In this document: one piece after another, positions 10,601-61,198 of the stretch
Layout of the letters: each line of letters starts with the position of its first letter
Position numbering within the stretch: position 1 is the first letter of the stretch
Origin: Naegleria gruberi
Lineage: Eukaryota
Assembly: GCA_000004985.1 (NCBI GenBank)
Contig: GG738931.1
DNA length: 64,000 bases
Direction: 5' to 3' (one strand)
Program-made: the position numbers and the translations under genes
Notes under the pieces: generated by a model
What the model was told of the DNA's origin: nothing
What the model saw: only the letters and a program-made list of their open reading frames with translations
Database searches by the model: none

Positions 10601-11640
10601 AAGTCCTGGTGTTCCACATCAATCCACATCTTATTTGGATTATACTTGTTTTTTGGAGTGACGAGGATAGTCTCGTGATTTTCAAAGTGTTTTGGATATC
10701 TTTTTTTCTTAGGTTTGTTCTTTTCGTTCAAGTATTCACATAAGATTGATTTTCCCTTGTCAATAATCTCGTTCATTGGCAGAATTTCAATTTCTTGTTT
10801 ACCACTGTTTGTTGTGAATTTACTCTTGGATTTTCCTTCATTATCATCCATTACTACAATATATTTTACAAAGTCCAATTGTTTTGTAATGCTGATGAAA
10901 AAATCGAGCATTTCTAAAGTACAAACGACAACCTGACTATCGGTCAGTTCAACAATATGTTTCGTCTCATCAAAAGTTTGGGCAAAGTGAATAGGAGCAG
11001 CCACAAATCCCTTGAAGAAACAAGCATAATCACACAAGTACCAATATAAATTATTCTTTCCACAAATGGATACAAATTGTCTCTTATTTTCCTCCCTCAA
11101 AGGTTTTAAAATTTCATCCAGTCCAACAGCAATACAACAAACCAAGTGGAATACTTGTTCATATCGAAGCCAATGATAAGGTCCGTCATCCTCTTTCAAT
11201 ATTCCAAAGCAAGGATTCATTGAATTTTCAATAAAACTCCGAAACAGTGTACTATTGACACGATCGGCCTCTGATCTTTGTTTGATTTCATGATAGTGAT
11301 ATTTTGTTGGTACAAAATATTCAAGATCCTCACAAAATGTTTCCAACCAGAGTTCTCTTTCCTTTTCTTCTGGTGTTTTTTCCTCATTGTCAACTTGTTG
11401 ATGATTAGGAGATGCATTCTTCCTTCTCTTCTTACATTTATCCCAACACCAATCGTAACACTTCTCGCACAAATCAGTTCCCTTGTCATTGGTATTGGTA
11501 TATCGGATTGTGTTTTCAATAACACCCAAACACATATTACAAATCCATCGATATGAAACCGATGTGACGGTGAAGTTGGTTGGTTTTTCCTCCACTTGCA
11601 GTTTTCCACGAGAGAATAGGGAGGTGATCTTGTTGAGCAT
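7666..11640 (-). CDS. NRPS-like carboxylic-acid-reductase-type enzyme: N-terminal ZZ-type zinc finger, ACSL-like adenylation (AMP-binding) domain, PCP/thiolation domain, C-terminal NAD(P)-binding thioester reductase domain (1324 aa, single exon)
   Basis: ZZ pattern: CNMC-x8-RY-x8-DLCEKC. Adenylation domain: core LVFTSGSTGQPKG (A3), FGMSEAG (A5), GELCVKT (A6), and the ACSL-like linker DRLKNIFKLSQGEFIAPAKIE. PCP: IDSLHAVKF Ser motif. Reductase: Rossmann LLTGSTGFLGAFIL and YSSTK catalytic dyad. Confidence 0.8.
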   Translation of the reverse strand: MLNKITSLFSRGKLQVEEKPTNFTVTSVSYRWICNMCLGVIENTIRYTNTNDKGTDLCEKCYDWCWDKCKKRRKNASPNHQQVDNEEKTPEEKERELWLETFCEDLEYFVPTKYHYHEIKQRSEADRVNSTLFRSFIENSMNPCFGILKEDDGPYHWLRYEQVFHLVCCIAVGLDEILKPLREENKRQFVSICGKNNLYWYLCDYACFFKGFVAAPIHFAQTFDETKHIVELTDSQVVVCTLEMLDFFISITKQLDFVKYIVVMDDNEGKSKSKFTTNSGKQEIEILPMNEIIDKGKSILCEYLNEKNKPKKKRYPKHFENHETILVTPKNKYNPNKMWIDVEHQDFILNRLEKDEDLLSLVFTSGSTGQPKGIMVSDKSLRREMHGFRAENPKVQFSFCPLAHMSDRKHTLLAMCDGARVGIFTRDFVHIFEDIQKVKPTVIASTPRLYNVLYDEYKKVYELEKTSWLSGISNQNEDRPKTERELEERVMKDFRNMLGGRLQSIIIGGASSSPQVREFLGKCFNCFVSDGFGMSEAGGIMNDNRLHSSVEYKLVDVPDMNYFTNDKPYPRGELCVKTKTMFIGYYKNEELTKNALDEEGWLHTNDIVEELGPRHIRIIDRLKNIFKLSQGEFIAPAKIEDALTTSKFIFQAFIYGNVSKSYLVGVIVPNQTVLKQFAIKEGLINSSSEELLSDSEKDLLKTNEKVKKVLCEEIEKVSVNCSLLPYEVPKDFIIEFESFSEKNDLLTSSMKVKRFGCEMKYKEELEALYEHLESINKRKLDEDLIRELLLNSQTGSAESDGNMKIIDSLHAVKFSGIMKQKYNIDVPLSLIFSQTDRNVDSVVSRVSDFVTKNQHDDVATVNSSHDWKKDILLPEDVLNDIIDLTSRGNTQFKKIADLKKGILLTGSTGFLGAFILRDLLEALEKAEENVKVYCIVREKNHQDDVFMRVKENLVEFKLWNDKYEKRISVVKGNLGDDNLGLTEEEFKKLAENIDIIYHNGAYVNSVMSYPQLFSSNTGSTLSLLKLACLSSKLNIQSGDSTLAPIVFVSTVGVLQSGLSLFGIPTSTSGISNKKDITDLINNHMDQVMRQLKPIIERANGYSSTKFVAEQYIQQARLLGYPGAIFRPGMIGSDTVNGVSNLIDWVNRLVMGCFEMNCFPKTNRTLNIVPVDIISRVIVQLTQNENAFVTDLHENPNYFIFELANLDKFVIHIDDLLSIAATTEAKLLKKEPMQNVTYQKWKQILNERNTKEENEMLLRLATLFKSDYEFPGSGDRLTNSHVHKVIQALSKLEDSECKALIPFKNLDQSYLAKQATFLVNSKTCH

Positions 11641-18436: not shown

Positions 18437-19396
18437 ATGACACAACACCAAACCAAAGGACTTTTTCGAGTTCATCATCATTCAAATGTCATTTCTGTCT
18501 TGACACAAGTATTGTTACATTTAGATCCAATCATGAATAGATACAATAATTATAACATTAATTCACATTCGTCTAAAATAGAAAGTGAAATGTTGCAAGC
18601 TTTTGATTCAATTGGAAGAAAAGTGTGGAATAATCAAGAATTGGAAATTGATATTTCGGAATTTTATTCTTTTTTCTCATTGGAAACTTGGGACAAATTT
18701 ATTGATCTTGAAGAAATGTTTCAATTTACAATAACAAATTGTAAACTATTGAATCAATACTTTAATACAACTGAGAAACGAACAACCACTTTTGAAATTT
18801 GTCCTACCTGCCAAATAGATTATGGAAAGAAGGAGAATATTTCAAATTATTGTACATTTATCTATTCGAAAGATAAATGGAAACAATTTAGAGAAACTAA
18901 TGAGATTTATCAAGATCCAATTCCATTCATAAAGGGATACCACTGTACAAGTTGTTATTCATTCCTTGAGATTATGCTGAAATCGACTATAATTGAAGCT
19001 CCTGAAATATTGCTCTTGAAATTACACTCTTCAATTGAGAATAACTATTTTTTATACGAATTTAATGTCCATGAACATGTTAAATTATTAGTAGACGAAT
19101 CGATTGACAATTCACATCATCAGGAATATGAGCTAGTTGCCGTAGTTGACTATTATAGAGAAAGAGGAATTTATGGAGGATTTTTCAAAAATCCAATGAA
19201 TAGAAGGTGGTATCAAATGAATGCTCATTCCATTGATGACTTCCCCAAACTGGTTGAAGATTTGAGTTGTATCAATTCAACCTCAAATTTTATTCTATTC
19301 TTCCAGAAAACAGTGGAAAGGAAACCAATTTATTGGAAATCTGTGTTATCCAATCGATTTGTATACTGGGACGTTTCATTTAGCTTCACTGAATAG
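18437..19396 (+). CDS. catalytically inactive USP/UCH-like (peptidase C19 fold) protein, 319 aa
   Basis: A degenerate Cys-box (GLFRVHHHSNVISVLTQVL, where consensus is GLxNxGNTCYxNSxLQ, with Cys replaced by His). Zinc-ribbon CPTC...CTSC is present. A His-box-like YELVAVVDYYRERGIYGGFF is present with His replaced. Assignment rests on motif recall only. Confidence 0.4.
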   Translation: MTQHQTKGLFRVHHHSNVISVLTQVLLHLDPIMNRYNNYNINSHSSKIESEMLQAFDSIGRKVWNNQELEIDISEFYSFFSLETWDKFIDLEEMFQFTITNCKLLNQYFNTTEKRTTTFEICPTCQIDYGKKENISNYCTFIYSKDKWKQFRETNEIYQDPIPFIKGYHCTSCYSFLEIMLKSTIIEAPEILLLKLHSSIENNYFLYEFNVHEHVKLLVDESIDNSHHQEYELVAVVDYYRERGIYGGFFKNPMNRRWYQMNAHSIDDFPKLVEDLSCINSTSNFILFFQKTVERKPIYWKSVLSNRFVYWDVSFSFTE

Positions 19397-21452: not shown

Positions 21453-23114
21453 TTAGTAAGGATATTTACATGGTCTCGTGGTTGGTGTAATGTAAGCACT
21501 GGTGGTTAAACGGAGAGGTGGCAATTGGAAGCTAATTGAAAATTCCATTTCCATCATAAAGGCAGTATATCCCAAAGGTGGATTCTTGACAACGACACGA
21601 TAGTTCATTCCTGAGGCATCTAATGGTGTGACTGGGGTGAATGTGAAGGCCTTTCCAATAGTGGTAATTCTGAAATCTCTTGCATTTGGATTGGTGGCTT
21701 GCCACAATTTAACAACAGTTGGTCTAGTTCCATTGGTAATTCTCAAATCGAGTTGGAGTCCAACGGAGTGAACATCTTGACTGGAGAATTCATAGTTTGG
21801 AAGATTAATACCATAGAGATGGGCATAATAATCGACTAAAACAGCATCCATCATATCACTGCCTTCCATATTGTGTCCAGTATTTGGCAGGTATTTCAAT
21901 CTCTTTTCACCAACAAGATGAGGATAACCATTTGGAGACAAGTCTGGCCAGAAGAATTCATCTCCCATACTATAGATCAAGAACTTGTTAATGTTGGCAT
22001 ATCTTTCAGTGTAGACGAGTGGATCCAAAATTCCAGCCAATGCATCAAATTCCTTAGTATTCAACCGGGTGACAATTCCTTGATCCATGTAAGAATCCAT
22101 TGCTTCAGGGAATTTACACAAACTATCATAAGTTTCCATCAAATTTTTCTTCAAATCCAAAACAGCAATAACCATAGGAATGATATTTTTCACTCTCTTA
22201 TCAACAGCAGCAAGAAGCCAAGTGGTCCAACCCTTCTTACTAGTTCCTTGAACTGTGAATTGTTCAATGGTGTGTCCTAATTCTTTCTTTGCAAAGTCTT
22301 GAATAGTATCCAATCCCTTTTGTCCAGCTCTTGTCATTGGCAAGTGAGCAATCCAATAAGGTTTACTAGTGTCATTCATGAAATGTCTCCAAGTAAATGC
22401 AACAATTCCGTCCTCAGCTCTTTCCTCTCTTTTTGGATCAGCTTCAAATACAATTGCTTGATTAGGAACTTGCATCATTTCAGTAACAATTGTACCAGTA
22501 GCAACAGCAATCTTGGTCAAATCAGCAAGATCATCCAAATTTGGAGTCTTGTCAGTATTTCTCTTTCCAATCATCCACAACAGTCCTTCCTTCTTATCTC
22601 TATTCAAATTATGTGGTACAATTACCAACATGAAATGCCACCAAACATATCGTCCATTCAAAATATCTTTTGGTGAAAGCCACACTTGACTTGTCATGTT
22701 CAACACATAGGTAGTAGCAGCAAGCCCATGCATGGTATTGATCAATCGATATGAATAATTATTATCCGGATAAGATTCCATAAATTCATCCAAGGCTGTT
22801 TTTTTAAAAGATTGATCAGCCTTTGAAGATGAAACCTTCCCAACACGAGAATTTACTTTTTCTCCTCTGATCAATTTCATAGAAGGAACAAGACTTCCCT
22901 CCACTACTGATGATGACGATGTATTAATCAACAGCAATACAATACTGTACATCAGCACAACACTACCCAACAACAACAAGACTCGCATCATTTTTGAAGA
23001 TTCATTTCCAGTACTCGATAACGAACGCGAAAATTCCCTCCTCTCAAATTGTGGCATTTTTTTAAGGTCGAAAAAGCAAGTGAAAATAAGATGTGAATTT
23101 CTTGGAAGGTTCAT
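21453..23114 (-). CDS. hypothetical 553-aa type II membrane or secreted protein (N-terminal TM anchor, large lumenal domain)
   Basis: ATG at 23114. A hydrophobic segment at residues 40-65. Single exon. From memory it weakly resembles the alpha/beta-hydrolase-like PhoPQ-related family reported in bacteria and dictyostelids. I cannot verify that here. Confidence 0.5.
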   Translation of the reverse strand: MNLPRNSHLIFTCFFDLKKMPQFERREFSRSLSSTGNESSKMMRVLLLLGSVVLMYSIVLLLINTSSSSVVEGSLVPSMKLIRGEKVNSRVGKVSSSKADQSFKKTALDEFMESYPDNNYSYRLINTMHGLAATTYVLNMTSQVWLSPKDILNGRYVWWHFMLVIVPHNLNRDKKEGLLWMIGKRNTDKTPNLDDLADLTKIAVATGTIVTEMMQVPNQAIVFEADPKREERAEDGIVAFTWRHFMNDTSKPYWIAHLPMTRAGQKGLDTIQDFAKKELGHTIEQFTVQGTSKKGWTTWLLAAVDKRVKNIIPMVIAVLDLKKNLMETYDSLCKFPEAMDSYMDQGIVTRLNTKEFDALAGILDPLVYTERYANINKFLIYSMGDEFFWPDLSPNGYPHLVGEKRLKYLPNTGHNMEGSDMMDAVLVDYYAHLYGINLPNYEFSSQDVHSVGLQLDLRITNGTRPTVVKLWQATNPNARDFRITTIGKAFTFTPVTPLDASGMNYRVVVKNPPLGYTAFMMEMEFSISFQLPPLRLTTSAYITPTTRPCKYPY

Positions 23115-23557: not shown

Positions 23558-23940
23558 GTTCATGATGAAAGATCTAAGGTAACATAATTATTTCCTATTT
23601 CCCTGGTAGTAAGAAGAAAGAGTAGGGGTTATCTGATGAATTTGTATATGAAAGTAGTAACAAGCTTGATATTCATTACTACTGATGTCTATCAACAAAA
23701 TTTCACATTGCTGATGATGTTTACATATCANNNNNNNNNNNNNNNNNNNNNNNNNNNNNNNNNNNNNNNNNNNNNNNNNNCTATCTGAAGTTCATGATGA
23801 AAGATCTAAGGTAACATAATTATTTCCTAGGTTATCTGATGAATTTGTATATGAAAGTAGTAACAAGCTTGATGATATTCATTACTACTGATGTCTATCA
23901 ACAAAATTTCACAATTGATGATGTTTACATATCAATTAAA
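23558..23940. repeat. direct ~170-bp duplication flanking a 50-N scaffold gap (copy 1 23558-23730 carries a 31-bp insertion; copy 2 23781-23940)
   Basis: Near-identical strings tgttcatgatgaaagatctaaggtaacataattatttcct...gatgtttacatatca occur on both sides of the N-run. Confidence 0.5.
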
Positions 23941-37967: not shown

Positions 37968-38639
37968 GATTTTGTTTCTTCTTGTTCGGGTGAAGTTGTT
38001 GTAGTTGCTGTCATTGTTTATATAATATATCAACAGACACAAAAGTATTCTAATAAATGTTCTCTCCAATTGAGAACCAATCTCTCGGTGTGATCAAAAT
38101 TTCAAAATCAAACACAAAAAGCCTTCTTCGCGTTTGCAATCTAAACCTTTAACTTGATTTTTTTCAAGTTAAAAAGACCGTTAGGGAAAATGCAGGGAAA
38201 AATTATTCTCTCGAGCAAGCGAAAAATATTCAGGCTTTGAAAAAAGGAGGCACCACCGTAGTAAGGAGTCTTTTTTTCGATATTTATTATCATTGAAAGC
38301 TTATCAGAGAGTGGTGAGGATGGAGAAGTGATTCATTGAAGGTCATGCTGTTTTATGAAATGTTTCATTGTTTGTTGTAGATCATGATGATTGAGGTTTG
38401 ATGAGGAGGAGTTATCGGATCAGTTCTCTTCGGAGTGAGGGTAAAGGAAAATTGCAGATAATCAAATTATTGTAATTAATATTCATGAGAATTTTAATTT
38501 ATTATTCAATGTTTTGTATTTTCATTTGAAAATAATATTGTAATATTTAAAATTATTAATATTTAACAATTATAATATTAAATTAATCTAAATATTGAAT
38601 TTTAAAAAAAATAATCATCACCAACTTGTTTCCATCACC

Positions 38640-40549
38640 ATGCGAGTGACCGTTCCTGTGGTCCATCAAGAATCAGAAATCCCTCCCGAATTCAAACATG
38701 AAGACAATGATGAATATTGGTGTTTCCTAACAAACTTTGAATTTAGGGATTCAAGAACAACTTCATTGAAGAGTCCCGAATTTATTACTGAGAAGGGAGT
38801 TTCTCTCATGTTGACTGGTTATTTACTAACACCCGAAGAATATAAATCATCTCCTGATGAGAAGGGTGAATATTTTGTCAAGATTGTTAATTTAAGACAA
38901 TGGGCTTTTGACCATGAGGATGAAACGAGAGGAATTTGGGTCGAATCTAAGAGACATTGGTTTAAATTGATAAAGCCAACAAGGGAATTTAAAGTAATTT
39001 ATGAATCGTTTGAGAAGAAGAGTAATATTTGGTTGGATTTACGACCTGTATTGACGAGATGGATTAAAAAGTTTGATAAATGTTCGGATGAAGATGTGAA
39101 AGCAGTGATAAATGATTTAACAATGGAATATGTGATGAAATCCATGAAAGTGAAAGGACATAGTGAGGAGGAGCTTATTGAAAATGCATTCTTTATTCAT
39201 GATAAGGCAGTTCAAGATTTTGATACCTTTTCATTTGAGGACTCGTCAGAAAATCAACTTCTTAGAACACCTTTTATGAAGGATTTGTTGGAATTGTCTT
39301 CTGAAAAGTCTAAAATTCCCATTATTGCTAAATCTCACTCAGTTGATAAAAAGGGGAAAGAAAAACAGGTTGTGACTGAAGAGGATTTTTCCTCTGATGA
39401 TGAGGATATGGATGTAAAGATTGTTATAGACGATTGTTCCTCTTCAGAGGATGATGATGATGAGGAGTACTTTGTCACAGTTAAAGCTGGCCTTGAGGAT
39501 GAACATAGTAAGGATGAACATGATGATGATGATGACGACTATGAGGAAACGTTAAAGAAAAAGAGAACGAGTTCACAAGCAGCTAAAAGAAATACACCAG
39601 AAAAGAAGAGGCCATATGCTCGTAGAACCTCTAAAAAGAGAACACCAACAAAGAATGTTGACAACTCTGAGAATCAAAAAGAGATTGAAAAAGTCACACC
39701 TAAAAAGAGAAAAGAATCGACAATTAGTAGAGAAACTAATGATGACGATGAGGATTTCAATGAAAGTGAGGAAGAATACAGTTCTGAAAATGGAAAAACC
39801 AAACAAAAACGAAGGAAATTCGAAAAACCAAGAAAGGCTACTGTTTGTTATTTCCGTGAATATACTTCACAACCTGGTGTTCCAACTATGGAGGAGCTAT
39901 TGAATCAAGAATTCACACCTCGTCTTATTACACAACTCAGTACTAAATATGAACCAGGTCTTGCGATTCCAGGTTGCTTCAATTGTCACAGAAAGAGAAT
40001 TATGTGTCTTAAGGAAAGACCAATTTGTTCTCATTGTCTTGAGGATGGGCTCTATTGTGAATACCCATCAGCGTTGAAAGTTTGTCGTAAGTATTATTTA
40101 AATTCTTCTTGTTGTTCTCACTCTAATTAGCATGCATACCGTGTTCTTTGAAATCGCAAAAGGTTTGCAATAGAGAACTTCCTTGCAATCATTGTGAGAA
40201 TGGTGAATGTTATTACTTTACATCAGATAATGGATTGCTGATTGGAGAAATGAAAATTGCAGCTCTAAAAGAATTATATGCTAAGATTGATGAAGAAAAA
40301 GCTGCAAAGGAACAATCCAGTAGTGATATTCTTGATAATTTGATAAAGGAAACAGCTCAAACAGCTGAACCTGAAGAGGTTGAGATAGTTGAGGAACATA
40401 ATGAAGAACTAGAAAGAAATAGAGAACGAGCAGCTGCTCTTAGAGAAGAAATCAAGAAATTGAAAAAGATTGCCCAACAAGAGACAGCTTTAAATGAAAG
40501 GAAAAAGAAAGAATTGAAAGAGATATTTAATTCTTTGAGCTCAAAGTAG
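38640..40549 (+). CDS. putative transcription factor with two tandem Zn(II)2Cys6 (GAL4-type) binuclear clusters, acidic and basic low-complexity regions, and a C-terminal coiled coil; 2 exons 38640..40086, 40131..40549 (621 aa)
   Basis: Cluster 1: CFNCHRKRIMCLKERPICSHCLEDGLYC. A GTAAGT donor and 44-nt intron join to cluster 2: CIPCSLKSQKVCNRELPCNHCENGEC. The C-terminus is E/K-rich and heptad-like. Confidence 0.65.
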
Positions 40550-45690: not shown

Positions 45691-47552
45691 ATGTCCAAAC
45701 TCGATCTCGACTCCAAGGCCAAACAAGCCTTCGATGATGTGAGCAATTCCAAACTCACCTATGCCTTGTTGAAACACGAAGGTACCTCCAACAAGGTTAT
45801 TGTTGCCTCCACCGGTGATGATATTTTGGATTTAATTGACGACTTGAATGATGGTACAATCATGTATGCCTTGATTCGTTTCGTCATTAACGATGCTACC
45901 AAATTTGTCTATGTGGTAGGTTTTTAATTTACATCATCATGTTTATATATCACATTGCGATTAATAATTGTTCTTATTTAAATTTAATTTTTGTGATGAT
46001 CACATCGCACTCAACTGTGATGATTTTAATGAAAATATTAAAAATTTAATGATGATAATGATTGTGTGTGGAATTTAAATTTGACAACAAACACAGGGTT
46101 GGTGTCCTGAAGGTATTGCTAATCAAATCTTCAAAGGAAAGTTCCAAAACTGGAACAAGGATATGGAATTCTATTTGTATGTTGTGTTTTCGAATAGTTG
46201 CAATTATTAACAGTTTTTACTTTCAACTTGTCAACTTATATGACATATAATTACACATCATCAAAATGTCCAATGTGGAAAATTAATCAAATTCAACAAC
46301 AAAATTTAAATTTCACAGGAAGGGAAGATACCACTTGTCAGTTTATGCTCGTAACGAAGAAGATATTGATCAAGCTTCTTGGATTAAGAAACTCAAAGTT
46401 GGTGCTGGTTCTTCCTACACACAAAGTTCAAATGCCAAGGATTTGACAATTTCACAAGCCAAGCAAAATATTGCATCATCAAAGACCGATGTTAAAAAGA
46501 CTGAAGTTGCGATTGATGACAGTGAAAGAAACAAATTCTGGGAAAAACAACAAGAAGAACTCAAGAAACAAGAAGAAAAGAAGAAGCTCCCACCACCAAG
46601 ATCTGACTATAAAAAGACAGATGAAAGAAATCAATTCTGGCAAGGTCAAAGTACCTCCACAACTAGTGGATCCACTGTTGTGAAGAGTAGTGATCGTATT
46701 AGTGAAATTCAACAAATCAAGAATAATAGTAATCAATTTTGGCAAAAGCAACAAGAACAACCAGTTCCAGAATCTGACAACAAACCAAAGGAAGTTGTTC
46801 GTGGAAACAAGGATTTGTTCAAAAAGTTCGAAAGCATGAGTGTTAAAACTGAAGAATCAAAACCTGTTGCCAGACAACCAATTTCAACTGGTGCTGCCAA
46901 GAAGCCAGTTTTCCAACCAAAGCACGAAGAACCAGTTTATGAGGAACCACAACATCATTATGAAGAACCAGTTCAAGAAGAATCTCACTATGAACACTAT
47001 GAAGAACCACAACAAGAAGAATCTCACTATGAGGAGCCACCACAACAAACTTATCATCAACCAAGAGTTCCACCTCCATTCCATCAACCACGTTATGATT
47101 CCGAAGAAGAAGAAGAGCCAGAACAAGAACCAGAACCTGTTCAAGAACCAGTTAACAATAAGCCATCTAAACCAAAAGGGTATGTTTTATTCAATAATTG
47201 ATTACTGACATTTTAATAGATATTTGGAAAGACAAGTTGAACAAGGAAATATTTCTCCATCTCAAGCTGAAGAAATTATTGCAAAGCCAACCAAACTTCC
47301 ACCTCCTCCAGTTCCAACCAAACCAAAGTATCCTGAATTGGTTGCTGTTTTTGATTTTGAGTAAGTATTTTAAATATTTTGAAATTTGATTTTTTAACAC
47401 ATTACAACAGAGGTCAAGATGGTGAAGAACTTTCATTCGCTGAAGGTGATACCCTCTATCTCGTTCAAGATGAAGGTGAATGGTGGTTAGCTGAAGATAC
47501 CAATGGTCAACAAGGTTACATTCCTTCAAACTATGTTGAATATAAAGAATAG
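45691..47552 (+). CDS. ABP1/drebrin-like actin-binding protein: N-terminal ADF-H domain, charged and Pro-rich middle, C-terminal SH3; 5 exons 45691..45915, 46097..46176, 46319..47179, 47220..47360, 47411..47552 (482 aa)
   Basis: The ADF-H domain spans exons 1-3 (KFVYV|GWCPEG...FYL|[16 protein letters not shown]). Proline motif [12 protein letters not shown]3: [39 protein letters not shown]. All donors are GTAGGT, GTATGT or GTAAGT. Confidence 0.75.
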
Positions 47553-47581
47553 TAATTGTAATAATAAAAAACTCTTGTAAA

Positions 47582-48994
47582 TTATTTATTTTTAACTGCC
47601 AAATCATATCTATTTCTGTAATAAACCTTAACATCACCTCTTATGATGATGTGATATTCATTAATCTCATTCTCATTTCCAAAAATTGTAACTCTATCAT
47701 CAACTTCCTCAGTTAAACTCTTTGTACAAAGATCAATACCTTCCCATGAATCATACAAAACAAGTGCCTTGTAATTGGATGCATCTTCTTCCTCATCGCT
47801 TTCCATTAAAAATCTACCAATCTCATCATCACTCAAATCGTCCAAGAGAGGAAGATTGACCTTCTTTGATTTCTTCTTTTCTGAAACAGGTGAAGCTCTC
47901 TTTGGTTTCTCACTCTCTGGAACCAGGTAAACGCTTCCCAATCCCTTACACTCAACAAATTCAATGCACTCTGTTGGTTTCAAAACTAGAGAACATGTCT
48001 TTGAAAGCACCTTCTTTAAACTGTAGAAAAATATGGAATTATGATCAACCTTTTCCTTCTTACTCACATGTACATCATTGTAAAAGTTGTCAGTTTTAGT
48101 TCTTTCAGAGGAGAATTTCTCTCTCATGTTTTGATTTACAACTGGAGAAGGCAAAACATCTCTCCTTACCTCTTCTGTCGAAATATCAATGACAAAATCA
48201 ATATTTGCTCTACTCGATCTTGTACTCATTGAGAGAGGTTCCAATCTTGGTGTACCTTCTGTGGTATCTAATGAAGGTGCTTCATCAAACTTTAGAGCTT
48301 CTGTGATATTGAGTGAACTTCTACTCTTTGAGATTTTCAGTTTTGGCAGTTCAACACTTTGCTCTGTTGTATGAACATGTAAAGGTGATATCCATGGATT
48401 GGCATCTTCTCCAGTGGGTGAAAGACTCATTGGTGTGTTTCTGAATGAGGAATATTGACGATGTTGAGGAATGAATAAATTTGAGGGAATCTGAACCGAA
48501 ACATCAGCTGAGGATCTAGTTTTGAGTGGTTGTGGAATGGATGCAAGTGAAGTATGAGGTCGGTCATCAAATTTAACTTCTTCAAAGTCGACATGTGTTG
48601 GTGTATGTATATCGTGCACTCTCTTTCTCCGAACCTTGCTATTATTTGAATTAGCTCTCCTCATAGAACCTTCCTTAGTGGCCAAAACTTTATGCTGTTG
48701 AGCACAATTGGAAGGTGTTAATGATGCTTCTGTTCGATTATATAGGATTGCCTCTGAAAGACCCAAATCTTCCAAGGAAAATTCACCATTCTTAGGGGAT
48801 ATATTTGTTGTTTTATGATGACTAGGTGTGCTGAGGGAGGAAGAGCTTCGTATGGTGCTTAATTTATCTTGTTGTTGCTGTTGATGATGAGAGAATATTC
48901 CCAACTCAAAGTCATTATCTGAATTTTCTGTTATTGTCGATGAAGATGAATCACCCGAAGATAAAACAGAAGTACTATAGGGCCTCTTATACAT
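47582..48994 (-). CDS. hypothetical 470-aa protein, S-rich disordered N-terminal two thirds, structured C-terminal ~130 aa
   Basis: ATG at 48994, single exon, convergent with ABP1 (stops 30 bp apart). No domain recognised. Confidence 0.45.
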   Translation of the reverse strand: MYKRPYSTSVLSSGDSSSSTITENSDNDFELGIFSHHQQQQQDKLSTIRSSSSLSTPSHHKTTNISPKNGEFSLEDLGLSEAILYNRTEASLTPSNCAQQHKVLATKEGSMRRANSNNSKVRRKRVHDIHTPTHVDFEEVKFDDRPHTSLASIPQPLKTRSSADVSVQIPSNLFIPQHRQYSSFRNTPMSLSPTGEDANPWISPLHVHTTEQSVELPKLKISKSRSSLNITEALKFDEAPSLDTTEGTPRLEPLSMSTRSSRANIDFVIDISTEEVRRDVLPSPVVNQNMREKFSSERTKTDNFYNDVHVSKKEKVDHNSIFFYSLKKVLSKTCSLVLKPTECIEFVECKGLGSVYLVPESEKPKRASPVSEKKKSKKVNLPLLDDLSDDEIGRFLMESDEEEDASNYKALVLYDSWEGIDLCTKSLTEEVDDRVTIFGNENEINEYHIIIRGDVKVYYRNRYDLAVKNK

Positions 48995-49593
48995 TTCGAT
49001 GAATTCTGCTTAACTACCTTAATACACTTTGCGATTGAAAATAAAGAGAATCTTCTGTTTTAAATAATGACGCCACTGCTGCTAATAGTGAATGTCTTGT
49101 TTTCTCACTTTTTTTTCTTCGTTTAATACTTATTAAAGCTCTATCATTTACAGATATAGATTCGCATTATTAATTGTGCACAGAATCGTTCCATGTTTGG
49201 TGCTATGATAAACGACTATTGTACATCTGACGCAGCAAAAGCAATGTATGCTGTGGTAGAATATATTTTCCGTTTTATATTAAGGTTACAGAAACCCGAT
49301 AATGATTGAAAGGAGGTTATTATAACTTTTGTTGATAGAAGCAAAATTTTGACAGAAAAATCAACAAATCGTTGATGCAAGTATGAAAATTCTTTATTTC
49401 CAAACATGAAACAGTGTTGAATGATTCTTGTCTTTATGCGTATTGTCAGCATCTAAATTGTCAACTTATTACAGACCTCAATAAAGGAAATGAGCTTTGA
49501 CAAAAAACCTGAGAAATTGCTCAGTTACTTTTTTGAATGTAGGATTTTTAATTATTAAAATTCACAAAGCAATCGCTTGCAAGCTTTGTAGTT

Positions 49594-49849
49594 TTTTTAT
49601 AGTAGTGATGTGGTTTTGTTGAAAAGATGAATACCGATGATAGCTCAGCTGGTAGAGCATGGGACTGTAGCAAGAAAAACTGTCATCCTGTGGTCGGCGG
49701 TTCGATTCCGTCTCATCGGATACTTTTACCACACAAAGCAATTAATCAATTTTAATTATGACACTTGTTCAATCGAATTTTTAAGACACTTCTGCTTATT
49801 GTACAGTTTTGAATTCTATAAGATCCACATAACTCAAATTTTCTAAGCG
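49594..49849. repeat. left arm of a ~250-bp inverted duplication carrying tRNA-Tyr
   Basis: About 40 bp upstream and about 130 bp downstream of the tRNA are colinear, in inverted orientation, with 52112-52345. There is a 23-bp indel and a few substitutions. Confidence 0.6.
49634..49720 (+). tRNA. tRNA-Tyr (anticodon GUA) with a 14-nt intron (CAAGAAAAACTGTC) at the canonical 37/38 position
   Basis: Acceptor stem CCGATGA/TCATCGG. D-arm GCTCAGCTGGTAGAGC. Anticodon stem TGGGA/TCCTG with loop CTGTAG. T-arm GGCGGTTCGATTCCGTC. Followed by a T4 run. Confidence 0.85.
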
Positions 49850-49919
49850 AATATAAATAATTTTGTTTTAAGAAAAATGTATTATCTTCAGTACAGTTTA
49901 CGTTTTACTTTTAAAAAAA

Positions 49920-50750
49920 ATGCTATGGGTAGAAATGGAGGTGGACATCCCACCAAAACAACAAGCAAAAAGAACACTCAAAGCCTTCGCTAAAATAATT
50001 CAGGTAAGGTGCCAAATAAGAAGACAATTTGACACAAGGCCAAAACAAATTGTTGGAGACAATATAGTGTCAGCAGCTAGATCAACGATCCTTGTTTATG
50101 TTGAGACAAACTCTAGAACAAAACTGGAAAATTTTTTGTTGGCTACTTACCACGCCTTCAAAAGATATTCCCTGTTGTTTATTGCTGATACTCAAAACCA
50201 ACATATAAGACAATCTGTTATACAGGCTCCTAGAAACCCTCCCACTAGTGGTAACGAAGACAGCAGTGACGATACCACATCTATCAAGAGCATTTCACTA
50301 CCTGTACAAACAAATAATTCGCCCAGTAACAGTACTGATACTAAATGGGCTTTATTAGAAGCCTATTTAATTGAGTTGAAAAGAGTTCCTTCTGGCTCGG
50401 AATCAGGCAATATTTCTTCAAGTTACAACTTAAATCCAACAGAAGAAATTATTCATGATACCCATAAAAACAAACCAAAAGTTACATCACCACCAAAACC
50501 AATCAAACATTCTCCAACCCTACAAAGAGCTGTGATACATTTCAAATGGANNNNNNNNNNNNNNNNNNNNNNNNNNNNNNNNNNNNNNNNNNNNNNNNNN
50601 TTGGAGAATGTTTTGGATGCATTGATTAGATTTAATGGAGATGATGAAGCCAAGATTGGATATGCTTTTGAAAAACTAAGACTAAAAGATGACAGAACCG
50701 CAAAATCCATTACAAGATGGTTGTTTTCAACCTTATTGACTAAAGATTAG
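49920..50750 (+). CDS. hypothetical protein (about 276 aa, interrupted by a 50-N gap) located inside the Pol III island
   Basis: ATG at 49920. The ORF spans the gap in frame. A GTAAGG donor-like site at 49947 could mean an intron. No domain recognised. Confidence 0.3.
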   Translation: MLWVEMEVDIPPKQQAKRTLKAFAKIIQVRCQIRRQFDTRPKQIVGDNIVSAARSTILVYVETNSRTKLENFLLATYHAFKRYSLLFIADTQNQHIRQSVIQAPRNPPTSGNEDSSDDTTSIKSISLPVQTNNSPSNSTDTKWALLEAYLIELKRVPSGSESGNISSSYNLNPTEEIIHDTHKNKPKVTSPPKPIKHSPTLQRAVIHFKWXXXXXXXXXXXXXXXXXLENVLDALIRFNGDDEAKIGYAFEKLRLKDDRTAKSITRWLFSTLLTKD

Positions 50751-50982
50751 ATTCGTTATGAATATTTCGATATACTTAAGTTGTATAAGCAACCTCAATT
50801 CCGAGTTTTAAAAACAATACTGGGAAAAGAGAGGTTCTGTTTAGTTTGGGTATTTCATCGTACCATCAATCACTGGAGAATCAATTAATGACGAATTAAG
50901 AATCAATTAATCAATTAAGATTTAAGATGTCTTTAAGTTTATATTATACACAATGTAAGGCTGACCTTCTCAATGAATATAA

Positions 50983-51031
50983 GCCGTCATAGCTCAGTTG
51001 GATAGAGAACAGGACTTCTAATCCTGGGGTC
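50983..51031 (+). pseudogene. tRNA-like 5' fragment (acceptor, D and anticodon arms; anticodon UCU, Arg-type) lacking a T-arm and 3' acceptor strand
   Basis: GCCGTCATAGCTCAGTTGGATAGAGAACAGGACTTCTAATCCTGGGGTC. The downstream sequence cannot fold into a T-arm or pair with the 5' acceptor strand. Confidence 0.3.
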
Positions 51032-51437
51032 ATTTTATCTATATTGGAAATAACATCAGACCCTTAGCTTGAATTTATTTTATTATTGTTGTTTTTTTGA
51101 TCCTCATCATTAGCTCTGTAATCTGTTTCACATATAATTGTATCCATTATTGTTGGCCACCCTTAACATTGAACATTTTGATTTCAATGATTTGTTGTAA
51201 TCATGAGCTCATGTTGTCAATCAAGGAGATGGGTTCGATCAATATCATTACAATCTCAATTTTCAATAACTGGACCAAGGAAATTCATTTATAATTCAGA
51301 TTTTATGATTATGAATGGCAACAATTTGTCAATTATTACTCTTTTTCCTTTGCAATTTTAGTAAAATTAGTAATCGAAGAGTAAAAGATCTTATCGACGA
51401 TGTTTGCCTTTTGTTCACTTTATTAAGGTAATTGAAT

Positions 51438-51556
51438 GGCTACGGCCATATCACGATGAATGCACCTCATCCCGTCCTATTTGAGAAGTTAAGCATCGTC
51501 GAGCCACATCAGTACTGAGGTTGGAGACAACTTGGGAACCTGTGGTGCTGTAGTCT
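51438..51556 (+). rRNA. 5S ribosomal RNA gene (about 119 nt)
   Basis: GGCTACGGCCATATCAC...CATCCCGTCC...GTACTGAGGTTGGAGACAACTTGGGAACCTGTGGTGCTGTAGTCT. The 5' GGCUAC pairs with the 3' GUAGUC. Followed by TTTTT. Confidence 0.8.
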
Positions 51557-51560
51557 TTTT
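51556..51560 (+). terminator. Pol III oligo-T terminator (T5) directly after the 5S gene
   Basis: A TTTTT run follows the 5S 3' end. Confidence 0.6.
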
Positions 51561-51815
51561 GGCTTTTGAAAACTGATAACTTTATTGAAATAATCCTTTT
51601 TTTATTTTCCTATAAACAACATGCTCATTCATCATTACAAAACATGAACCAAGTTTGTGTCTAGAAACAAAAATTAGTTCATGACAGAATTTGTTTTGCA
51701 AGTCTGATCAGAACAGAACTACTTTCTTAAAATATAAATTTCTTTTCATGAGAATAAAAAACAATGAAGGTGGTTTGAAATCAAACAATAAGAAAAAAAC
51801 AAAACGAACAACATA

Positions 51816-52046
51816 ATGCAATTATTTGTCAAAACACTCACTGGAAGAACTATCACTTTGGAAGTTGAATCTAATGATTCAATTGAAAATGTGAAAAGAA
51901 AAGTACAAGATAAGGAAGGAATTTCACCAGATCAACAAAGACTCATCTTTGGTGGAAAACAATTGGAAGATGGAAGAACTATTGGTGATTACAATCTTCA
52001 AAAGGATTCAACTCTTCATTTAGTATTGAGATTGAGAGGTGGTTGA
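51816..52046 (+). CDS. single-copy divergent ubiquitin-like protein, 76 aa ending in RGG-stop with no C-terminal extension
   Basis: [76 protein letters not shown]. Thirteen differences from canonical ubiquitin (I3L, K11R, G18S, S19N, N21S, A28R, I30V, P37S, A46G, L56I, S57G, I61L, E64D). K6, K27, K29, K33, K48, K63, L8, I44 and V70 are retained. Confidence 0.8.
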
Positions 52047-52111
52047 ATAATCAAAGTCAAAGATTCTCAATTATTGTATATAAATTGATATTAGTACAAT
52101 TTCTTTTTGGA

Positions 52112-52345
52112 ATGTTCGCTTAGAAAATTTGAGTTAGGTGGATCTAATAGAATTCAAAACTGTAAAATAAGCAGAAGTGTCATAAAAATTCGATTAATTG
52201 CTTTGTGTGGTAAAAGTATCCGATGAGACGGAATCGAACCGCCGACCACAGGATGACAGTTTTTCTTGCTACAGTCCCATGCTCTACCAGCTGAGCTATC
52301 ATCGGTATTCATCTGTTCTAAAAAACCACACAACTACTATCAAAA
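52112..52345. repeat. right arm of the inverted duplication carrying the second tRNA-Tyr
   Basis: The reverse complement aligns with 49594-49849. The flanks diverge beyond about 40 bp on the outer side and about 130 bp on the inner side. Confidence 0.6.
52219..52305 (-). tRNA. tRNA-Tyr (GUA), second copy, identical including the 14-nt intron
   Basis: The reverse complement of 52219-52305 equals the 49634-49720 gene. Confidence 0.85.
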
Positions 52346-52536
52346 ATTTCTCTGTAATTTGTTTAATGGCTTCTCAATGAAGAAACCTAACCGGCACAGT
52401 ATTTGGCCCAATCAAATTATTATAATTCTCCAGTTAAATAATCAACATCCATTACTTTAGAACTCAGCTTGCTGTTGGGGCCCAAATTATTTTGTTTCTC
52501 AAACGAAAAAAATACCAACAAATACGAATCCACAAG

Positions 52537-58220: not shown

Positions 58221-59429
58221 ATGCCACTCAAGGACGGTGATCGTATTGCATTGAATATTATCAAGGCTGTTGATCTTGTTGCTGCTGATATGAACGGAAA
58301 GTCAGATCCAGTAGGTTTTAAATAAGATGATAATAGTATTGATCTAATATTATATTTATAGTATTTAATTGTTGAAACTGTTAATAAACATGGACAAGCA
58401 GAACATCATCGTANNNNNNNNNNNNNNNNNNNNNNNNNNNNNNNNNNNNNNNNNNNNNNNNNNNNNNNNNNNNNNNNNNNNNNNNNNNNNNNNNNNNNNN
58501 NNNNNNNNNNNNNNNNNNNNNNNNNNNNNNNNNNNNNNNNNNNNNNNNNNNNNNNNNNNNNNNNNNNNNNNNNNNNNNNNNNNNNNNNNNNNNNNNNNNN
58601 NNNNNNNNNNNNNNNNNNNNNNNNNNNNNNNNNNNNNNNNNNNNNNNNNNNNNNNNNNNNNNNNNNNNNNNNNNNNNNNNNNNNNNNNNNNNNNNNNNNN
58701 NNNNNNNNNNNNNNNNNNNNNNNNNNNNNNNNNNNNNNNNNNNNNNNNNNNNNNNNNNNNNNNNNNNNNNNNNNNNNNNNNNNNNNNNNNNNNNNNNNNN
58801 NNNNNNNNNNNNNNNNNNNNNNNNNNNNNNNNNNNNNNNNNNNNNNNNNNNNNNNNNNNNNNNNNNNNNNNNNNNNNNNNNNNNNNNNNNNNNNNNNNNN
58901 NNNNNNNNNNNNNNNNNNNNNNNNNNNNNNNNNNNNNNNNNNNNNNNNNNNNNNNNNNNNNNNNNNNNNNNNNNNNNNNNNNNNNNNNNNNNNNNNNNNN
59001 NNNNNNNNNNNNNNNNNNNNNNNNNNNNNNNNNNNNNNNNNNNNNNNNNNNNNNNNNNNNNNNNNNNNNNNNNNNNNNNNNNNNNNNNNNNNNNNNNNNN
59101 NNNNNNNNNNNNNNNNNNNNNNNNNNNNNNNNNNNNNNNNNNNNNNNNNNNNNNNNNNNNNNNNNNNNNNNNNNNNNNNGGTTATTCAAAATGGTGCCAA
59201 TATCACTTCTTCATTCAAGGACTCTGATACATTCCAAGAAGTATTCCACTACAATTGGAAGTTCACCAATGCTGAGAACAAGTTGATGCAAGTTTGGTCA
59301 ATTATCTGTTTGCCATCTTCCAACACTGCTGGTATGCTTAATTTTGTCTATTATGCTGAAGATTCTCATTTCACACCTGAAAAGTTGCAAGTGGTGAACT
59401 ATTGTGCTCTCAAAACAACTGTCAAATAA
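58221..59429 (+). CDS. C2-domain protein interrupted by the 766-N assembly gap (exon 1 58221..58310, exon 2 begins 58362; C-terminal coding resumes at 59180 and stops at 59429)
   Basis: MPLKDGDRIALNIIKAVDLVAADMNGKSDP|YLIVETVNKHGQAEHHR is a C2 start, split by a 51-nt GTAGGT...ATAG intron. After the gap there is in-frame coding with typical codon usage. Confidence 0.5.
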
Positions 59430-60948: not shown

Positions 60949-61198
60949 AAGAAAACTAATGACAGAATCAATCAAAGCTGATGTTTCTAATTTTNNNNNN
61001 NNNNNNNNNNNNNNNNNNNNNNNNNNNNNNNNNNNNNNNNNNNNNNNNNNNNNNNNNNNNNNNNNNNNNNNNNNNNNNNNNNNNNNNNNNNNNNNNNNNN
61101 NNNNNNNNNNNNNNNNNNNNNNNNNNNNNNNNNNNNNNNNNNNNNNNNNNNNNNNNNNNNNNNNNNNNNNNNNNNNNNNNNNNNNNNNNNNNNNNNNN

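What the first reader, a model, noticed from the sequence alone, without database searches (positions are those of the whole stretch)
49594..52345. Pol III island: inverted tRNA-Tyr duplication bracketing a dispersed 5S rRNA gene, a tRNA fragment and a divergent ubiquitin-like gene
Two identical intron-containing tRNA-Tyr(GUA) genes lie in inverted orientation inside ~250-bp inverted repeats. Together they enclose 2.4 kb that holds four elements. One is an uncharacterised ORF. One is a truncated tRNA-Arg(UCU)-like 5' half. One is a solitary 5S rRNA gene with its own T5 terminator. One is a monomeric ubiquitin-like gene, discussed below. A 5S gene linked to tRNAs rather than to an rDNA array, and a protein gene embedded between Pol III genes, are both unusual. 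The inverted-repeat bracket raises the possibility of a hairpin-prone or recombinogenic locus, or a captured mobile segment. The tRNA fragment suggests past tRNA-targeted insertion or recombination.
Basis: seen in the sequence. Interest (0 to 1): 0.6.

Follow-up and report, generated by a model that had tools for sequence, protein, structure and literature searches.

The report
Ordinary Naegleria tRNA–5S–ubiquitin gene cluster
This is a real but ordinary small-RNA gene cluster in the amoeba Naegleria gruberi: one of about 279 scattered 5S rRNA genes, a locally duplicated and inverted tyrosine tRNA gene, a dead tRNA fragment and a divergent ubiquitin copy.

Summary
Rfam finds a full-length 5S rRNA gene (51438-51556, 97.6 bits). 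It also finds two identical intron-containing tRNA-Tyr(GUA) genes (49634-49720 +, 52219-52305 -) inside inverted repeats of 262 and 235 nt. A sub-threshold tRNA 5' half (UCU anticodon), a 76-aa ubiquitin-like ORF and an orphan ORF lie between them.

The window is Naegleria gruberi nuclear DNA: one ORF is 100% identical to an annotated N. gruberi protein.

The "unusual" reading does not survive that context. A published table lists 279 putative 5S genes on 117 N. gruberi scaffolds, with a median spacing of 34 kb. Naegleria rDNA sits on an extrachromosomal plasmid. In Leishmania major, another member of Discoba, every dispersed 5S gene lies beside tRNA genes.

The repeat arms have diverged in their flanks (11 substitutions and a 27-nt indel), while a 119-bp core containing the tRNA is identical. 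That pattern indicates an old DNA-level duplication with both tRNA copies maintained, and argues against a duplicated-sequence assembly artefact. I found no target-site duplication, no transposase and no further copy in the window.

The ubiquitin-like gene is already annotated (XP_002669132). It belongs to a divergent ubiquitin family found at several N. gruberi loci.

Verdict: a new member of known kinds, of low interest. Inversion isomers and genome-wide 5S-tRNA linkage remain untested.

The parts
49593..49854 (+). Left arm of the inverted repeat (262 nt): 41 nt upstream flank, tRNA-Tyr, 134 nt downstream flank. Includes a 27-nt tandem duplication at 49744-49770 that the right arm lacks.
   Evidence: the repeat finder I1+I2; gapped alignment; BLAST 85.5% over 262 columns including the indel, E = 2e-89.
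49634..49720 (+). tRNA-Tyr(GUA) gene, left copy. 14-nt intron at 49671-49684 (position 37/38). A box at +8, B box at +66. T4 terminator at 49724-49727.
   Evidence: Rfam RF00005, 54.8 bits against gathering 29; cloverleaf and intron; boxes.
49920..50750 (+). Orphan ORF ('ORF-A'), at least 276 codons, interrupted by a 50-N assembly gap at 50551-50600. Probably a lineage-specific protein gene; not in the annotated proteome.
   Evidence: the ORF listing. The open frame runs 226 codons left of the gap and 49 codons right of it. In-frame codon log-odds are +0.06 and +0.42, the best of six frames; P(210 open codons by chance) = 7e-8. No Pfam hit. No homologue in 5.8 G proteins or in 1.84 G representatives. 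AF2 pLDDT 37.7.
50983..51031 (+). tRNA pseudogene fragment: acceptor 5' strand, D arm, anticodon arm (UCU, so Arg by anticodon) and variable loop. The T arm and 3' acceptor strand are missing. A box retained, no B box. A T4 run follows 2 nt after the break.
   Evidence: Rfam RF00005, 21.4 bits, E = 0.45, below gathering 29. No TGACGGC 3' strand in the window. Box scan.
51438..51556 (+). 5S rRNA gene, single copy in the window. Box A at +50, box-C-like element at +80 (2 mismatches). AT-rich TTTATTAA element 13-20 nt upstream of the gene. T5 terminator at 51556-51560.
   Evidence: Rfam RF00001, 97.6 bits, full length; motif scan; flanking sequence.
51816..52046 (+). Monomeric divergent ubiquitin gene (76 aa, ends RGG-stop). 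This is N. gruberi XP_002669132.1 / D2W3I3 / NAEGRDRAFT_44880. 13 substitutions against canonical ubiquitin, including K11R.
   Evidence: Pfam PF00240, 103 bits. 83% identical to ubiquitin, 53% to NEDD8. Exact match to the annotated protein. Paralogous units in P0019 and P0063. Codon log-odds +0.38.
52112..52346 (-). Right arm of the inverted repeat (235 nt).
52219..52305 (-). tRNA-Tyr(GUA) gene, right copy, identical to the left copy and convergent with it. Intron at 52255-52268.
   Evidence: Rfam RF00005, 54.8 bits; 87/87 identity.

Best explanation
This is an ordinary Pol III gene cluster in the nuclear genome of Naegleria gruberi, built from independent and individually well-known processes.

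1. **5S gene.** It is one of the roughly 279 dispersed 5S copies of this genome. It is a self-contained Pol III unit, with an internal box A and box-C-like control region, an AT-rich upstream element and a T5 terminator.
2. **tRNA-Tyr pair.** A DNA segment of about 260 bp carrying a tRNA-Tyr(GUA) gene with its flanks was duplicated locally in inverted orientation. That gave two convergent genes. Both still have intact A and B boxes, a canonical intron and a terminator, and both have been kept identical by selection and/or gene conversion while the flanks drifted.
3. **tRNA fragment.** A third tRNA gene (anticodon UCU) lost its 3' half, and with it the B box. It is a decaying pseudogene, a scar of rearrangement at a Pol III-rich site.
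4. **Ubiquitin-like gene.** It is a Pol II gene, a solitary unit of a Naegleria-specific divergent ubiquitin family that evolves by birth and death.
5. **ORF-A.** It is probably a lineage-specific protein gene.

Shown here: the identity and integrity of each element, the organism, the divergence pattern of the repeat, and the genome-wide dispersal of 5S genes (from a published table). Inferred: DNA-level duplication as the origin of the repeat, expression of both tRNA copies, inactivity of the fragment, and expression of ORF-A and of the ubiquitin-like gene.
For: - **Organism.** ORF 21453-23114 is 100% identical to an annotated N. gruberi protein on a 138,333-bp contig. The ubiquitin-like ORF and the 470-aa left neighbour match N. 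gruberi XP_002669132 and XP_002669172 exactly, on the same contig.
- **5S dispersal.** 279 putative 5S genes lie on 117 scaffolds. Median same-scaffold spacing is 33.9 kb and only one pair is closer than 1 kb (PMC3369914 Table S1; counted).
- **Gene integrity.**
- **Repeat divergence.** Zero differences in a 119-bp core, against 11 substitutions and a 27-nt indel in 148 aligned flank positions. At the flank rate of 7.4%, about 9 changes would be expected in the core. That excludes a recent collapse or duplication artefact and indicates constraint or gene conversion.
- **Flanks are included.** The repeat contains 41 nt upstream of the tRNA gene, so the copy was made from DNA and not from a tRNA transcript.
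- **Ubiquitin family.** The first 43 residues of P0063 are 100% identical to this gene, and the first 49 of P0019 are 94% identical. Their second units share the derived residues I56, L61 and D64. Canonical Naegleria polyubiquitin is 96% identical to the human protein (PMC7990177), whereas this gene is 83% identical.
- **Precedent.** All eleven dispersed L. major 5S genes are associated with tRNA genes (PMC2695483).
Against: - Three full Pol III genes and a fragment sit in 2.75 kb, with none in the other 61 kb. That is tighter than independent scatter would give, so some non-random force acts here: a shared chromatin or insertion preference, or co-duplication.
- I could not fetch other N. gruberi 5S loci, so I cannot say whether tRNA or ubiquitin linkage recurs.
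- A scaffold gap (50551-50600) separates the two repeat arms. Their relative orientation therefore rests on scaffolding, plus the continuity of an open frame across the gap.
- Xu et al. report no TFIIIA in N. gruberi, which leaves open how its 5S genes are transcribed.
Confidence: 0.75

Rival explanations
1. Functional Pol III hub. In N. gruberi, where no TFIIIA was found, 5S genes are placed next to tRNA-type A/B-box elements. TFIIIC/TFIIIB recruited by the flanking tRNA-Tyr genes (and the A box of the fragment) would then drive or boost 5S transcription. Alternatively, the convergent tRNA pair acts as a chromatin barrier around the enclosed genes.
For: All Pol III elements of the 64-kb window are packed into 2.75 kb. 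No TFIIIA was reported for N. gruberi (PMC3369914). 5S genes always sit with tRNA genes in L. major. Yarrowia uses tRNA-5S fusions as a TFIIIA-independent route (PMC2566860).
Against: The 5S gene has its own box A at +50, a box-C-like element at +80, an upstream AT-rich element and its own terminator. It lies 1717 nt from the left tRNA-Tyr and 407 nt from the fragment. The right tRNA-Tyr is 662 nt away on the opposite strand. T runs follow both the left tRNA-Tyr and the fragment, so co-transcription is excluded. The failure to find TFIIIA may simply reflect how fast that protein diverges. This is a single locus, and no genome-wide association was tested.
Confidence: 0.1
2. Invertible or recombinogenic segment. 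The 235-262-nt inverted arms, with a 119-bp perfect core, mediate flip-flop inversion of the 2.26-kb segment, so that both orientations coexist in the population or in different strains.
For: The inverted arms share a 119-bp perfect match. A contig from a 98%-identical strain in an ENA metagenome stops 117 bp before the left arm, as assemblers often do near repeats.
Against: There is no read-level evidence. All enclosed genes are self-contained, so inversion would have no obvious consequence. The flank divergence shows that the arms are not being homogenised along their whole length.
Confidence: 0.07
3. Composite mobile element or captured segment, bounded by terminal inverted repeats that carry the tRNA genes.
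For: There are 235-262-nt terminal inverted repeats. The enclosed ORF-A is an orphan with no homologue. Many same-scaffold 5S pairs in the published table lie 1.5-3.5 kb apart, which is about the size of this unit.
Against: No target-site duplication of 6 nt or more lies within 15 nt of the outer ends. ORF-A has no transposase or integrase domain and gave no usable fold. No second copy of any part exists in the window. The 'terminal repeats' are simply a tRNA gene with its flanks, most conserved in the gene and not at the tips.
Confidence: 0.04
4. Assembly or scaffolding artefact. The second tRNA-Tyr copy, or its orientation, results from a mis-join at the 50-N gap inside the island.
For: The gap at 50551-50600 lies between the two arms.
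Against: The arms differ by 11 substitutions and a 27-nt indel, so they are two distinct genomic sequences. An open frame with coding-like codon usage abuts both sides of the gap on the same strand: 226 codons on the left and 49 on the right, against 5-28 codons in the other frames.
Confidence: 0.04

Closest known systems
Dispersed 5S rRNA genes of Naegleria gruberi (Xu et al. 2012, PLoS One, PMC3369914, Table S1)
   Same: Same organism and same gene family. The paper lists 279 putative copies, not linked to the rDNA, with an internal control region and an upstream TATA-like element. By my count they lie on 117 scaffolds with a median spacing of 34 kb. The 5S gene here fits that pattern: a solitary copy with box A at +50.
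   Different: That paper did not describe the neighbours of individual copies. Its summary table calls the arrangement 'tandem', which the coordinates do not support. I could not map this copy to a row of the table, because the scaffold number of the window is unknown.
Trypanosomatid Pol III gene clusters (Padilla-Mejia et al. 2009, PMC2695483)
   Same: [quoted passage not shown] Like Naegleria, the trypanosomatids belong to Discoba.
   Different: Intergenic spacers in trypanosomatid clusters are short and protein genes are not interleaved. Here a ubiquitin-like gene and an ORF lie between the Pol III genes, and the cluster is dominated by one duplicated tRNA.
[quoted passage not shown] 2008, PMC2566860)
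   Same: 5S genes scattered through the genome and physically linked to tRNA genes.
   Different: In Yarrowia the tRNA and 5S are fused and co-transcribed from the tRNA promoter. Here the nearest same-strand tRNA element is a B-box-less fragment 407 nt upstream, followed by a T run, and the 5S gene has its own control elements.
5S rRNA genes linked to ubiquitin genes in Tetrahymena pyriformis (Guerreiro et al. 1993) and Tritrichomonas foetus (Torres-Machorro et al. 2009). Recalled from memory; not retrievable in the paper library.
   Same: A 5S gene and a ubiquitin gene share an intergenic region of a few hundred bp. Here it is 259 bp.
   Different: Those are repeated 5S units within or between ubiquitin gene arrays. 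This is a single 5S gene next to a single divergent ubiquitin monomer, and recurrence in Naegleria is untested.
Birth-and-death evolution of ubiquitin genes (Nei, Rogozin & Piontkivska 2000, cited in PMC3123226) and canonical Naegleria polyubiquitin (PDB 5VIX, PMC7990177)
   Same: Ubiquitin fold and an LRLRGG C-terminus. K6, K27, K29, K33, K48 and K63 and the L8/I44/V70 patch are retained. Paralogous units exist at other N. gruberi loci.
   Different: The gene is 83% identical to ubiquitin, whereas canonical Naegleria polyubiquitin is 96% identical to the human protein. K11 is replaced by R. It is a monomer that ends exactly at GG, with no ribosomal-protein fusion or repeat.
Closely spaced identical tRNA gene pairs in Dictyostelium discoideum (Eichinger et al. 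2005). Recalled from memory; the paper is not held.
   Same: Identical tRNA genes occur as nearby pairs, which were interpreted as recent local duplications.
   Different: A different supergroup. Whether paired tRNA genes are frequent in Naegleria was not tested.

Membership tests
Eukaryotic nuclear tRNA gene (Rfam RF00005; Pol III type 2) | Covariance-model score at or above the gathering threshold, with a complete cloverleaf | tested here: met
   Both tRNA-Tyr copies score 54.8 bits against gathering 29, over model positions 1-71. The mature 73-nt cloverleaf folds.
Eukaryotic nuclear tRNA gene (Rfam RF00005; Pol III type 2) | Internal A and B boxes and a downstream T-run terminator | tested here: met
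   A box TAGCTCAGCTGG at +8, B box GGTTCGATTCC at +66. TTTT lies 3 nt after the 3' end.
Eukaryotic tRNA-Tyr(GUA) | GUA anticodon, with an intron directly 3' of position 37 | tested here: met
   Anticodon loop CUGUAGA, with the 14-nt intron CAAGAAAAACTGTC between G37 and A38.
Eukaryotic nuclear tRNA gene, applied to the UCU fragment | Complete cloverleaf and B box | tested here: not met
   21.4 bits, below gathering 29. No T arm, no B box within 300 nt, and no 3' acceptor strand in the window. It is a pseudogene fragment.
5S rRNA gene (Rfam RF00001; Pol III type 1) | Full-length covariance-model match | tested here: met
   97.6 bits against gathering 38, model positions 1-120, not truncated.
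5S rRNA gene (Rfam RF00001; Pol III type 1) | Internal control region (box A near +50, box C near +80) and a T-run terminator | tested here: inconclusive
   Box A matches exactly at +50. Box C at +80 matches with 2 of 18 mismatches to the consensus used by Xu et al. T5 terminator at the 3' end. TFIIIA binding cannot be tested here.
rDNA-linked or tandem-array 5S organisation | 5S gene inside an rDNA unit, or repeated head-to-tail at spacings below 1 kb | tested here: not met
   One 5S gene and no other rRNA gene in 64 kb. Genome-wide, only 1 of 162 same-scaffold gaps is under 1 kb.
Dicistronic tRNA-5S gene (Yarrowia type) | An intact tRNA immediately upstream of the 5S gene on the same strand, with no terminator between them | tested here: not met
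   The nearest same-strand element is a truncated tRNA 407 nt upstream, followed by a T4 run. The intact left tRNA-Tyr is 1717 nt upstream and has its own T4.
Ubiquitin family (Pfam PF00240) | Ubiquitin-domain profile match and a C-terminal diglycine | tested here: met
   PF00240, 103 bits, residues 3-74. The ORF ends LRLRGG-stop.
Canonical ubiquitin | Near-invariant sequence (about 96% or more identical across eukaryotes) with all seven lysines | tested here: not met
   63/76 identical (83%), with 13 substitutions including K11R. N. fowleri polyubiquitin is 96% identical to the human protein (PMC7990177).
NEDD8 | Closer to NEDD8 than to ubiquitin | tested here: not met
   53% identical to NEDD8 against 83% to ubiquitin.
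Terminal-inverted-repeat DNA transposon | Target-site duplication flanking the inverted repeats | tested here: not met
   The best direct repeat within 15 nt of the outer ends is 5 nt and offset, which is chance level.
Terminal-inverted-repeat DNA transposon | Encoded transposase, or multiple copies in the genome | tested here: inconclusive
   ORF-A has no Pfam domain, no homologue and no usable model. No other copy is in the window. The rest of the genome could not be searched.

The most novel reading that the evidence does not exclude
In Naegleria, where no TFIIIA has been identified, the roughly 279 dispersed 5S genes may be systematically placed next to tRNA-type A/B-box elements, with divergent ubiquitin units travelling along. 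Under that reading this island is one instance of a genome-wide, functionally required 5S-tRNA module: a loose, non-fused analogue of the Yarrowia tRNA-5S solution. Its spread would also explain the 1.5-3.5-kb spacing seen for many neighbouring 5S copies.
Probability: 0.07. Interest if true: 0.55.

Novelty: new member of a known kind. Interest (0 to 1): 0.15.

Why it matters
It matters little beyond annotation. The locus adds two tRNA-Tyr genes, a tRNA pseudogene and a 5S gene to a stretch of the N. gruberi assembly whose protein gene is already annotated. It also shows that the 76-aa 'predicted protein' NAEGRDRAFT_44880 is a divergent, K11-less ubiquitin paralogue with relatives at two or more other loci.

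The only wider question it touches is how a genome with hundreds of scattered, near-identical 5S genes and no recognised TFIIIA transcribes and homogenises them. This single locus cannot answer that. A whole-genome scan could.

Tried and rejected
- **ARAGORN** found no tRNA in the window. It was run in bacterial mode and missed the intron-containing genes; Rfam recovered them.
- **Exact-protein look-ups** for three window ORFs and for N. gruberi P0019, P0063 and P0121 failed. N. gruberi scaffolds are not in that index, so no other N. gruberi 5S or ubiquitin-like locus could be fetched.
- **JGI metagenome scan** with a 21-nt lineage-specific 5S pattern gave 0 hits.
- **N. fowleri locus L001** is only partly syntenic with window positions 7-40 kb. 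It stops short of the island and has no Rfam hit.
- **ENA contig L002** from a 98%-identical strain ends 117 bp before the left arm, so it says nothing about the island.
- **The ubiquitin-like homology search** was swamped by two-domain polyubiquitin fragments. Its only useful yield was the two N. gruberi paralogues.
- **Split or permuted tRNA** as an explanation of the fragment was rejected. No 3' acceptor strand exists in the window. The GGTTCGATC motif at 51231 lacks a T stem and fails even the loose B-box pattern.
- **Retroposed 5S copy** was rejected for lack of evidence. The only flanking direct repeat is the 8-mer ACTTTATT, with chance p of about 0.15.
- **Structure prediction of ORF-A** gave pLDDT 37.7, so no fold search was attempted.
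- **Folding the left arm as single-stranded DNA** gave nothing beyond the shuffle control, z = 0.32.
- **Literature searches** for Naegleria 5S/tRNA organisation, for 5S-ubiquitin linkage and for paired tRNA genes returned little. The useful results were PMC3369914 and PMC2695483.


Full report
**Observation.**
- Rfam at gathering thresholds finds exactly three RNA genes in the 64-kb window. One is a full-length 5S rRNA at 51438-51556 (+), at 97.6 bits against a gathering score of 38. The other two are identical tRNAs at 49634-49720 (+) and 52219-52305 (-), each at 54.8 bits against 29.
- A permissive scan of the whole window adds no further Pol III gene.
- The tRNA is a standard eukaryotic tRNA-Tyr. 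The mature form is 73 nt with anticodon GUA. A 14-nt intron sits between positions 37 and 38, the A box is at +8, the B box at +66, and a T4 run lies 3 nt downstream.
- ARAGORN in bacterial mode missed both copies.
- The two genes lie inside inverted arms 49593-49854 and 52112-52346.
- Between the arms lie four elements:
  - An open frame at 49920-50750, broken by a 50-N gap.
  - A tRNA 5' half with a UCU anticodon at 50983-51031. It scores 21.4 bits, below threshold, and lacks a T arm, a B box and any 3' partner in the window.
  - The 5S gene, with a T5 terminator.
  - A 76-codon ubiquitin-like ORF at 51816-52046.

**Organism.** The window is about 33% G+C with long uninterrupted ORFs.
- ORF 21453-23114 is 100% identical to an annotated Naegleria gruberi protein on a 138,333-bp contig, and 64% identical to its N. 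fowleri homologue.
- The ubiquitin-like ORF and its 470-aa left neighbour are exact matches to N. gruberi XP_002669132 (NAEGRDRAFT_44880) and XP_002669172, on the same contig.

The window is therefore N. gruberi nuclear DNA.

**Is a dispersed 5S gene next to tRNAs unusual here?** No.
- Xu et al. 2012 (PMC3369914) searched the N. gruberi genome and list 279 putative 5S genes, not located with the rDNA units.
- I counted their table. The 279 entries lie on 117 scaffolds, and 57 scaffolds hold a single copy. The median gap between neighbours on the same scaffold is 33.9 kb, and only one gap is under 1 kb.
- Dispersal is therefore the genome-wide rule, although the paper's summary table says 'tandem'.
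- Naegleria rDNA is carried on an extrachromosomal plasmid (PMC12482156), so there is no chromosomal rDNA array for 5S genes to sit in.
- Linkage of dispersed 5S genes to tRNA genes has clear precedent. In Leishmania major all eleven 5S genes are associated with tRNA genes, in mixed Pol III clusters (PMC2695483). In Yarrowia the scattered 5S genes are even fused to tRNAs (PMC2566860).
- A protein gene between Pol III genes is expected in a genome this compact.

**The inverted repeat.** A gapped alignment gives this pattern:
- Upstream flank: 35/41 identical.
- tRNA: 87/87 identical.
- Downstream flank: 23 identical nt, then a 27-nt indel, then 79/84 identical. The indel is a tandem duplication present only in the left arm.
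- Longest perfect run: 119 bp.

Three inferences follow.
- The flanks carry 11 substitutions in 148 aligned positions (7.4%). At that rate about 9 changes would be expected in the 119-bp core, and none is seen. The two copies are therefore distinct genomic sequences and not a duplicated-read artefact. The duplication is not recent, and the tRNA core is kept identical by selection and/or gene conversion.
- The repeat includes 41 nt upstream of the gene, so it was copied as DNA and not through an RNA intermediate.
- A caveat remains. The assembly gap at 50551-50600 lies between the arms, so their relative orientation depends on scaffolding. An open frame with coding-like codon usage abuts both sides of the gap on the same strand, which supports the join.

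**Mobile element?** The evidence is against it.
- The best direct repeat near the outer ends is 5 nt and offset, which is chance level.
- No other copy of any part of the island is in the window.
- ORF-A has no Pfam domain. It has no homologue among 5.8 billion proteins by word search, and none among 1.84 billion representatives by full HMMER. Its AlphaFold model is unusable at pLDDT 37.7.
- ORF-A is not in the annotated proteome, because the search did not even find itself. It is still probably a real lineage-specific gene. At least 210 open codons have a chance probability of 7e-8, and its in-frame codon log-odds are the best of the six frames, though weak.

**The tRNA fragment.** It keeps the A box and breaks exactly at the start of the T arm, with a T4 run 2 nt later. 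By anticodon it is Arg(UCU). Its D stem already has a G-A mismatch, consistent with decay. I found no 3' half that would make it a split or permuted gene. It is best read as a pseudogene left by a rearrangement. The cause cannot be recovered from this sequence.

**The ubiquitin-like gene.**
- It is 83% identical to canonical ubiquitin (63/76) and 53% identical to NEDD8.
- The substitutions are I3L, K11R, P19S, S20N, T22S, A28R, I30V, P37S, A46G, L56I, S57G, I61L and E64D.
- The other six lysines, the L8/I44/V70 patch and the LRLRGG end are intact, and the ORF stops right after GG.
- N. fowleri polyubiquitin is 96% identical to the human protein (PMC7990177), so this gene is a divergent paralogue and not the organism's ordinary ubiquitin.
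- It is a singleton at 90% identity in the 15-billion-protein collection.
- Two other N. gruberi gene models, on 782-kb and 442-kb contigs, begin with 43-49 residues that are 100% and 94% identical to it. They continue with a second unit type that shares I56, L61 and D64. Those models look like mis-spliced tandem di-ubiquitin-like genes.
- The gene therefore belongs to a multi-locus, Naegleria-specific divergent ubiquitin family, which fits the known birth-and-death evolution of ubiquitin genes.
- From memory, 5S-ubiquitin linkage has been described in Tetrahymena pyriformis and Tritrichomonas foetus. I could not retrieve those papers and could not test whether it recurs in Naegleria.

**Comparative data.** These were thin.
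- N. gruberi scaffolds are not in the contig index.
- A JGI metagenome scan with a 5S-specific 21-mer found nothing.
- The N. fowleri locus around the PhoPQ-related homologue is partly syntenic with window positions 7-40 kb but does not reach the island, and has no Rfam hit.
- A 3.6-kb ENA metagenome contig from a 98.15%-identical strain covers window 45939-49476 and ends 117 bp before the left arm.

**Verdict.** The island is a genuine local concentration of Pol III genes. Each component is of a known kind, and the features flagged as unusual are normal for Naegleria and its relatives.

The best explanation has five parts (confidence about 0.75):
- a dispersed 5S copy;
- an old, local, inverted DNA duplication of a tRNA-Tyr gene, with both copies maintained;
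- a decayed tRNA pseudogene;
- a solitary member of a divergent ubiquitin family;
- an orphan ORF.

Three readings remain open: inversion isomers, a functional 5S-tRNA dependence in a genome with no recognised TFIIIA, and a recurrent 5S module. Each is of low probability here and each could be tested with a whole-genome scan and long reads. Interest is low.

Noticed in passing
window 21453-23114 (-): The PhoPQ-activated pathogenicity-related (PF10142) protein has, apart from Naegleria homologues, only bacterial metagenome-assembled genome (MAG) proteins among its best relatives, at 35-39% identity (Hydrogenedentes, Verrucomicrobia, Sedimentisphaerales). This could reflect an old bacterial-to-Naegleria transfer.
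   Followed up: no
window 38595-40130 (+); N. fowleri L001 14273-15843: This ORF combines a DNMT1-RFD (replication foci) domain with a fungal-type Zn2Cys6 cluster. The same pairing is present in the syntenic N. fowleri gene, and it is an odd domain combination.
   Followed up: no
N. gruberi proteins P0019 (XP_002679408) and P0063 (XP_002677982), on other scaffolds: These gene models splice together parts of two different divergent ubiquitin units, type A as in this window and type B. They are probably mis-predicted tandem di-ubiquitin-like genes, which would make this a small Naegleria-specific ubiquitin-like family.
   Followed up: partly
window 23731-23780, 50551-50600, 58414-59179, 60995-61198: There are four assembly gaps (runs of N). 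One lies inside the island and interrupts ORF-A. The 766-N gap explains the apparent 19% G+C dip at 58-60 kb.
   Followed up: yes
window 49744-49770: A 27-nt tandem duplication of the unit AATCGAATTTTTAWGACACTT... is present only in the left repeat arm. It accounts for the length difference between the arms.
   Followed up: yes
window 51417-51424 and 51579-51586: The 8-nt direct repeat ACTTTATT lies 13 nt upstream and 22 nt downstream of the 5S gene. The chance expectation is about 0.15, so it is not convincing as an insertion scar.
   Followed up: partly
L002 (ENA ERZ929261, contig k127_5516) vs window 45939-49476: A metagenome contig is 98.15% identical to the window over 3.57 kb. A close N. 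gruberi relative is therefore present in that public metagenome (run ERR1078381, project PRJEB11402). The contig ends 117 bp before the left inverted-repeat arm.
   Followed up: partly
PMC3369914 Table S1 (N. gruberi 5S coordinates): Thirty-two of the 162 gaps between neighbouring same-scaffold 5S genes are under 5 kb, and many fall between 1.5 and 3.5 kb. Many tiny scaffolds (under 2 kb) consist of little more than a 5S gene. This hints at local 5S-containing repeat units that break the assembly.
   Followed up: partly
window 18453-18498 (+): A weak histone 3' stem-loop match (23.9 bits, gathering 34, E = 0.027) lies at the start of ORF 18437-19396. It is probably chance.
   Followed up: no
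window 7666-11640 (-) and L001 1-3362: A large AMP-binding + NAD_binding_4 protein (carboxylic-acid-reductase-like architecture) is conserved between N. gruberi and N. fowleri. Its orientation relative to the PhoPQ-MFS block appears to differ between the two species, which suggests a local inversion.
   Followed up: no
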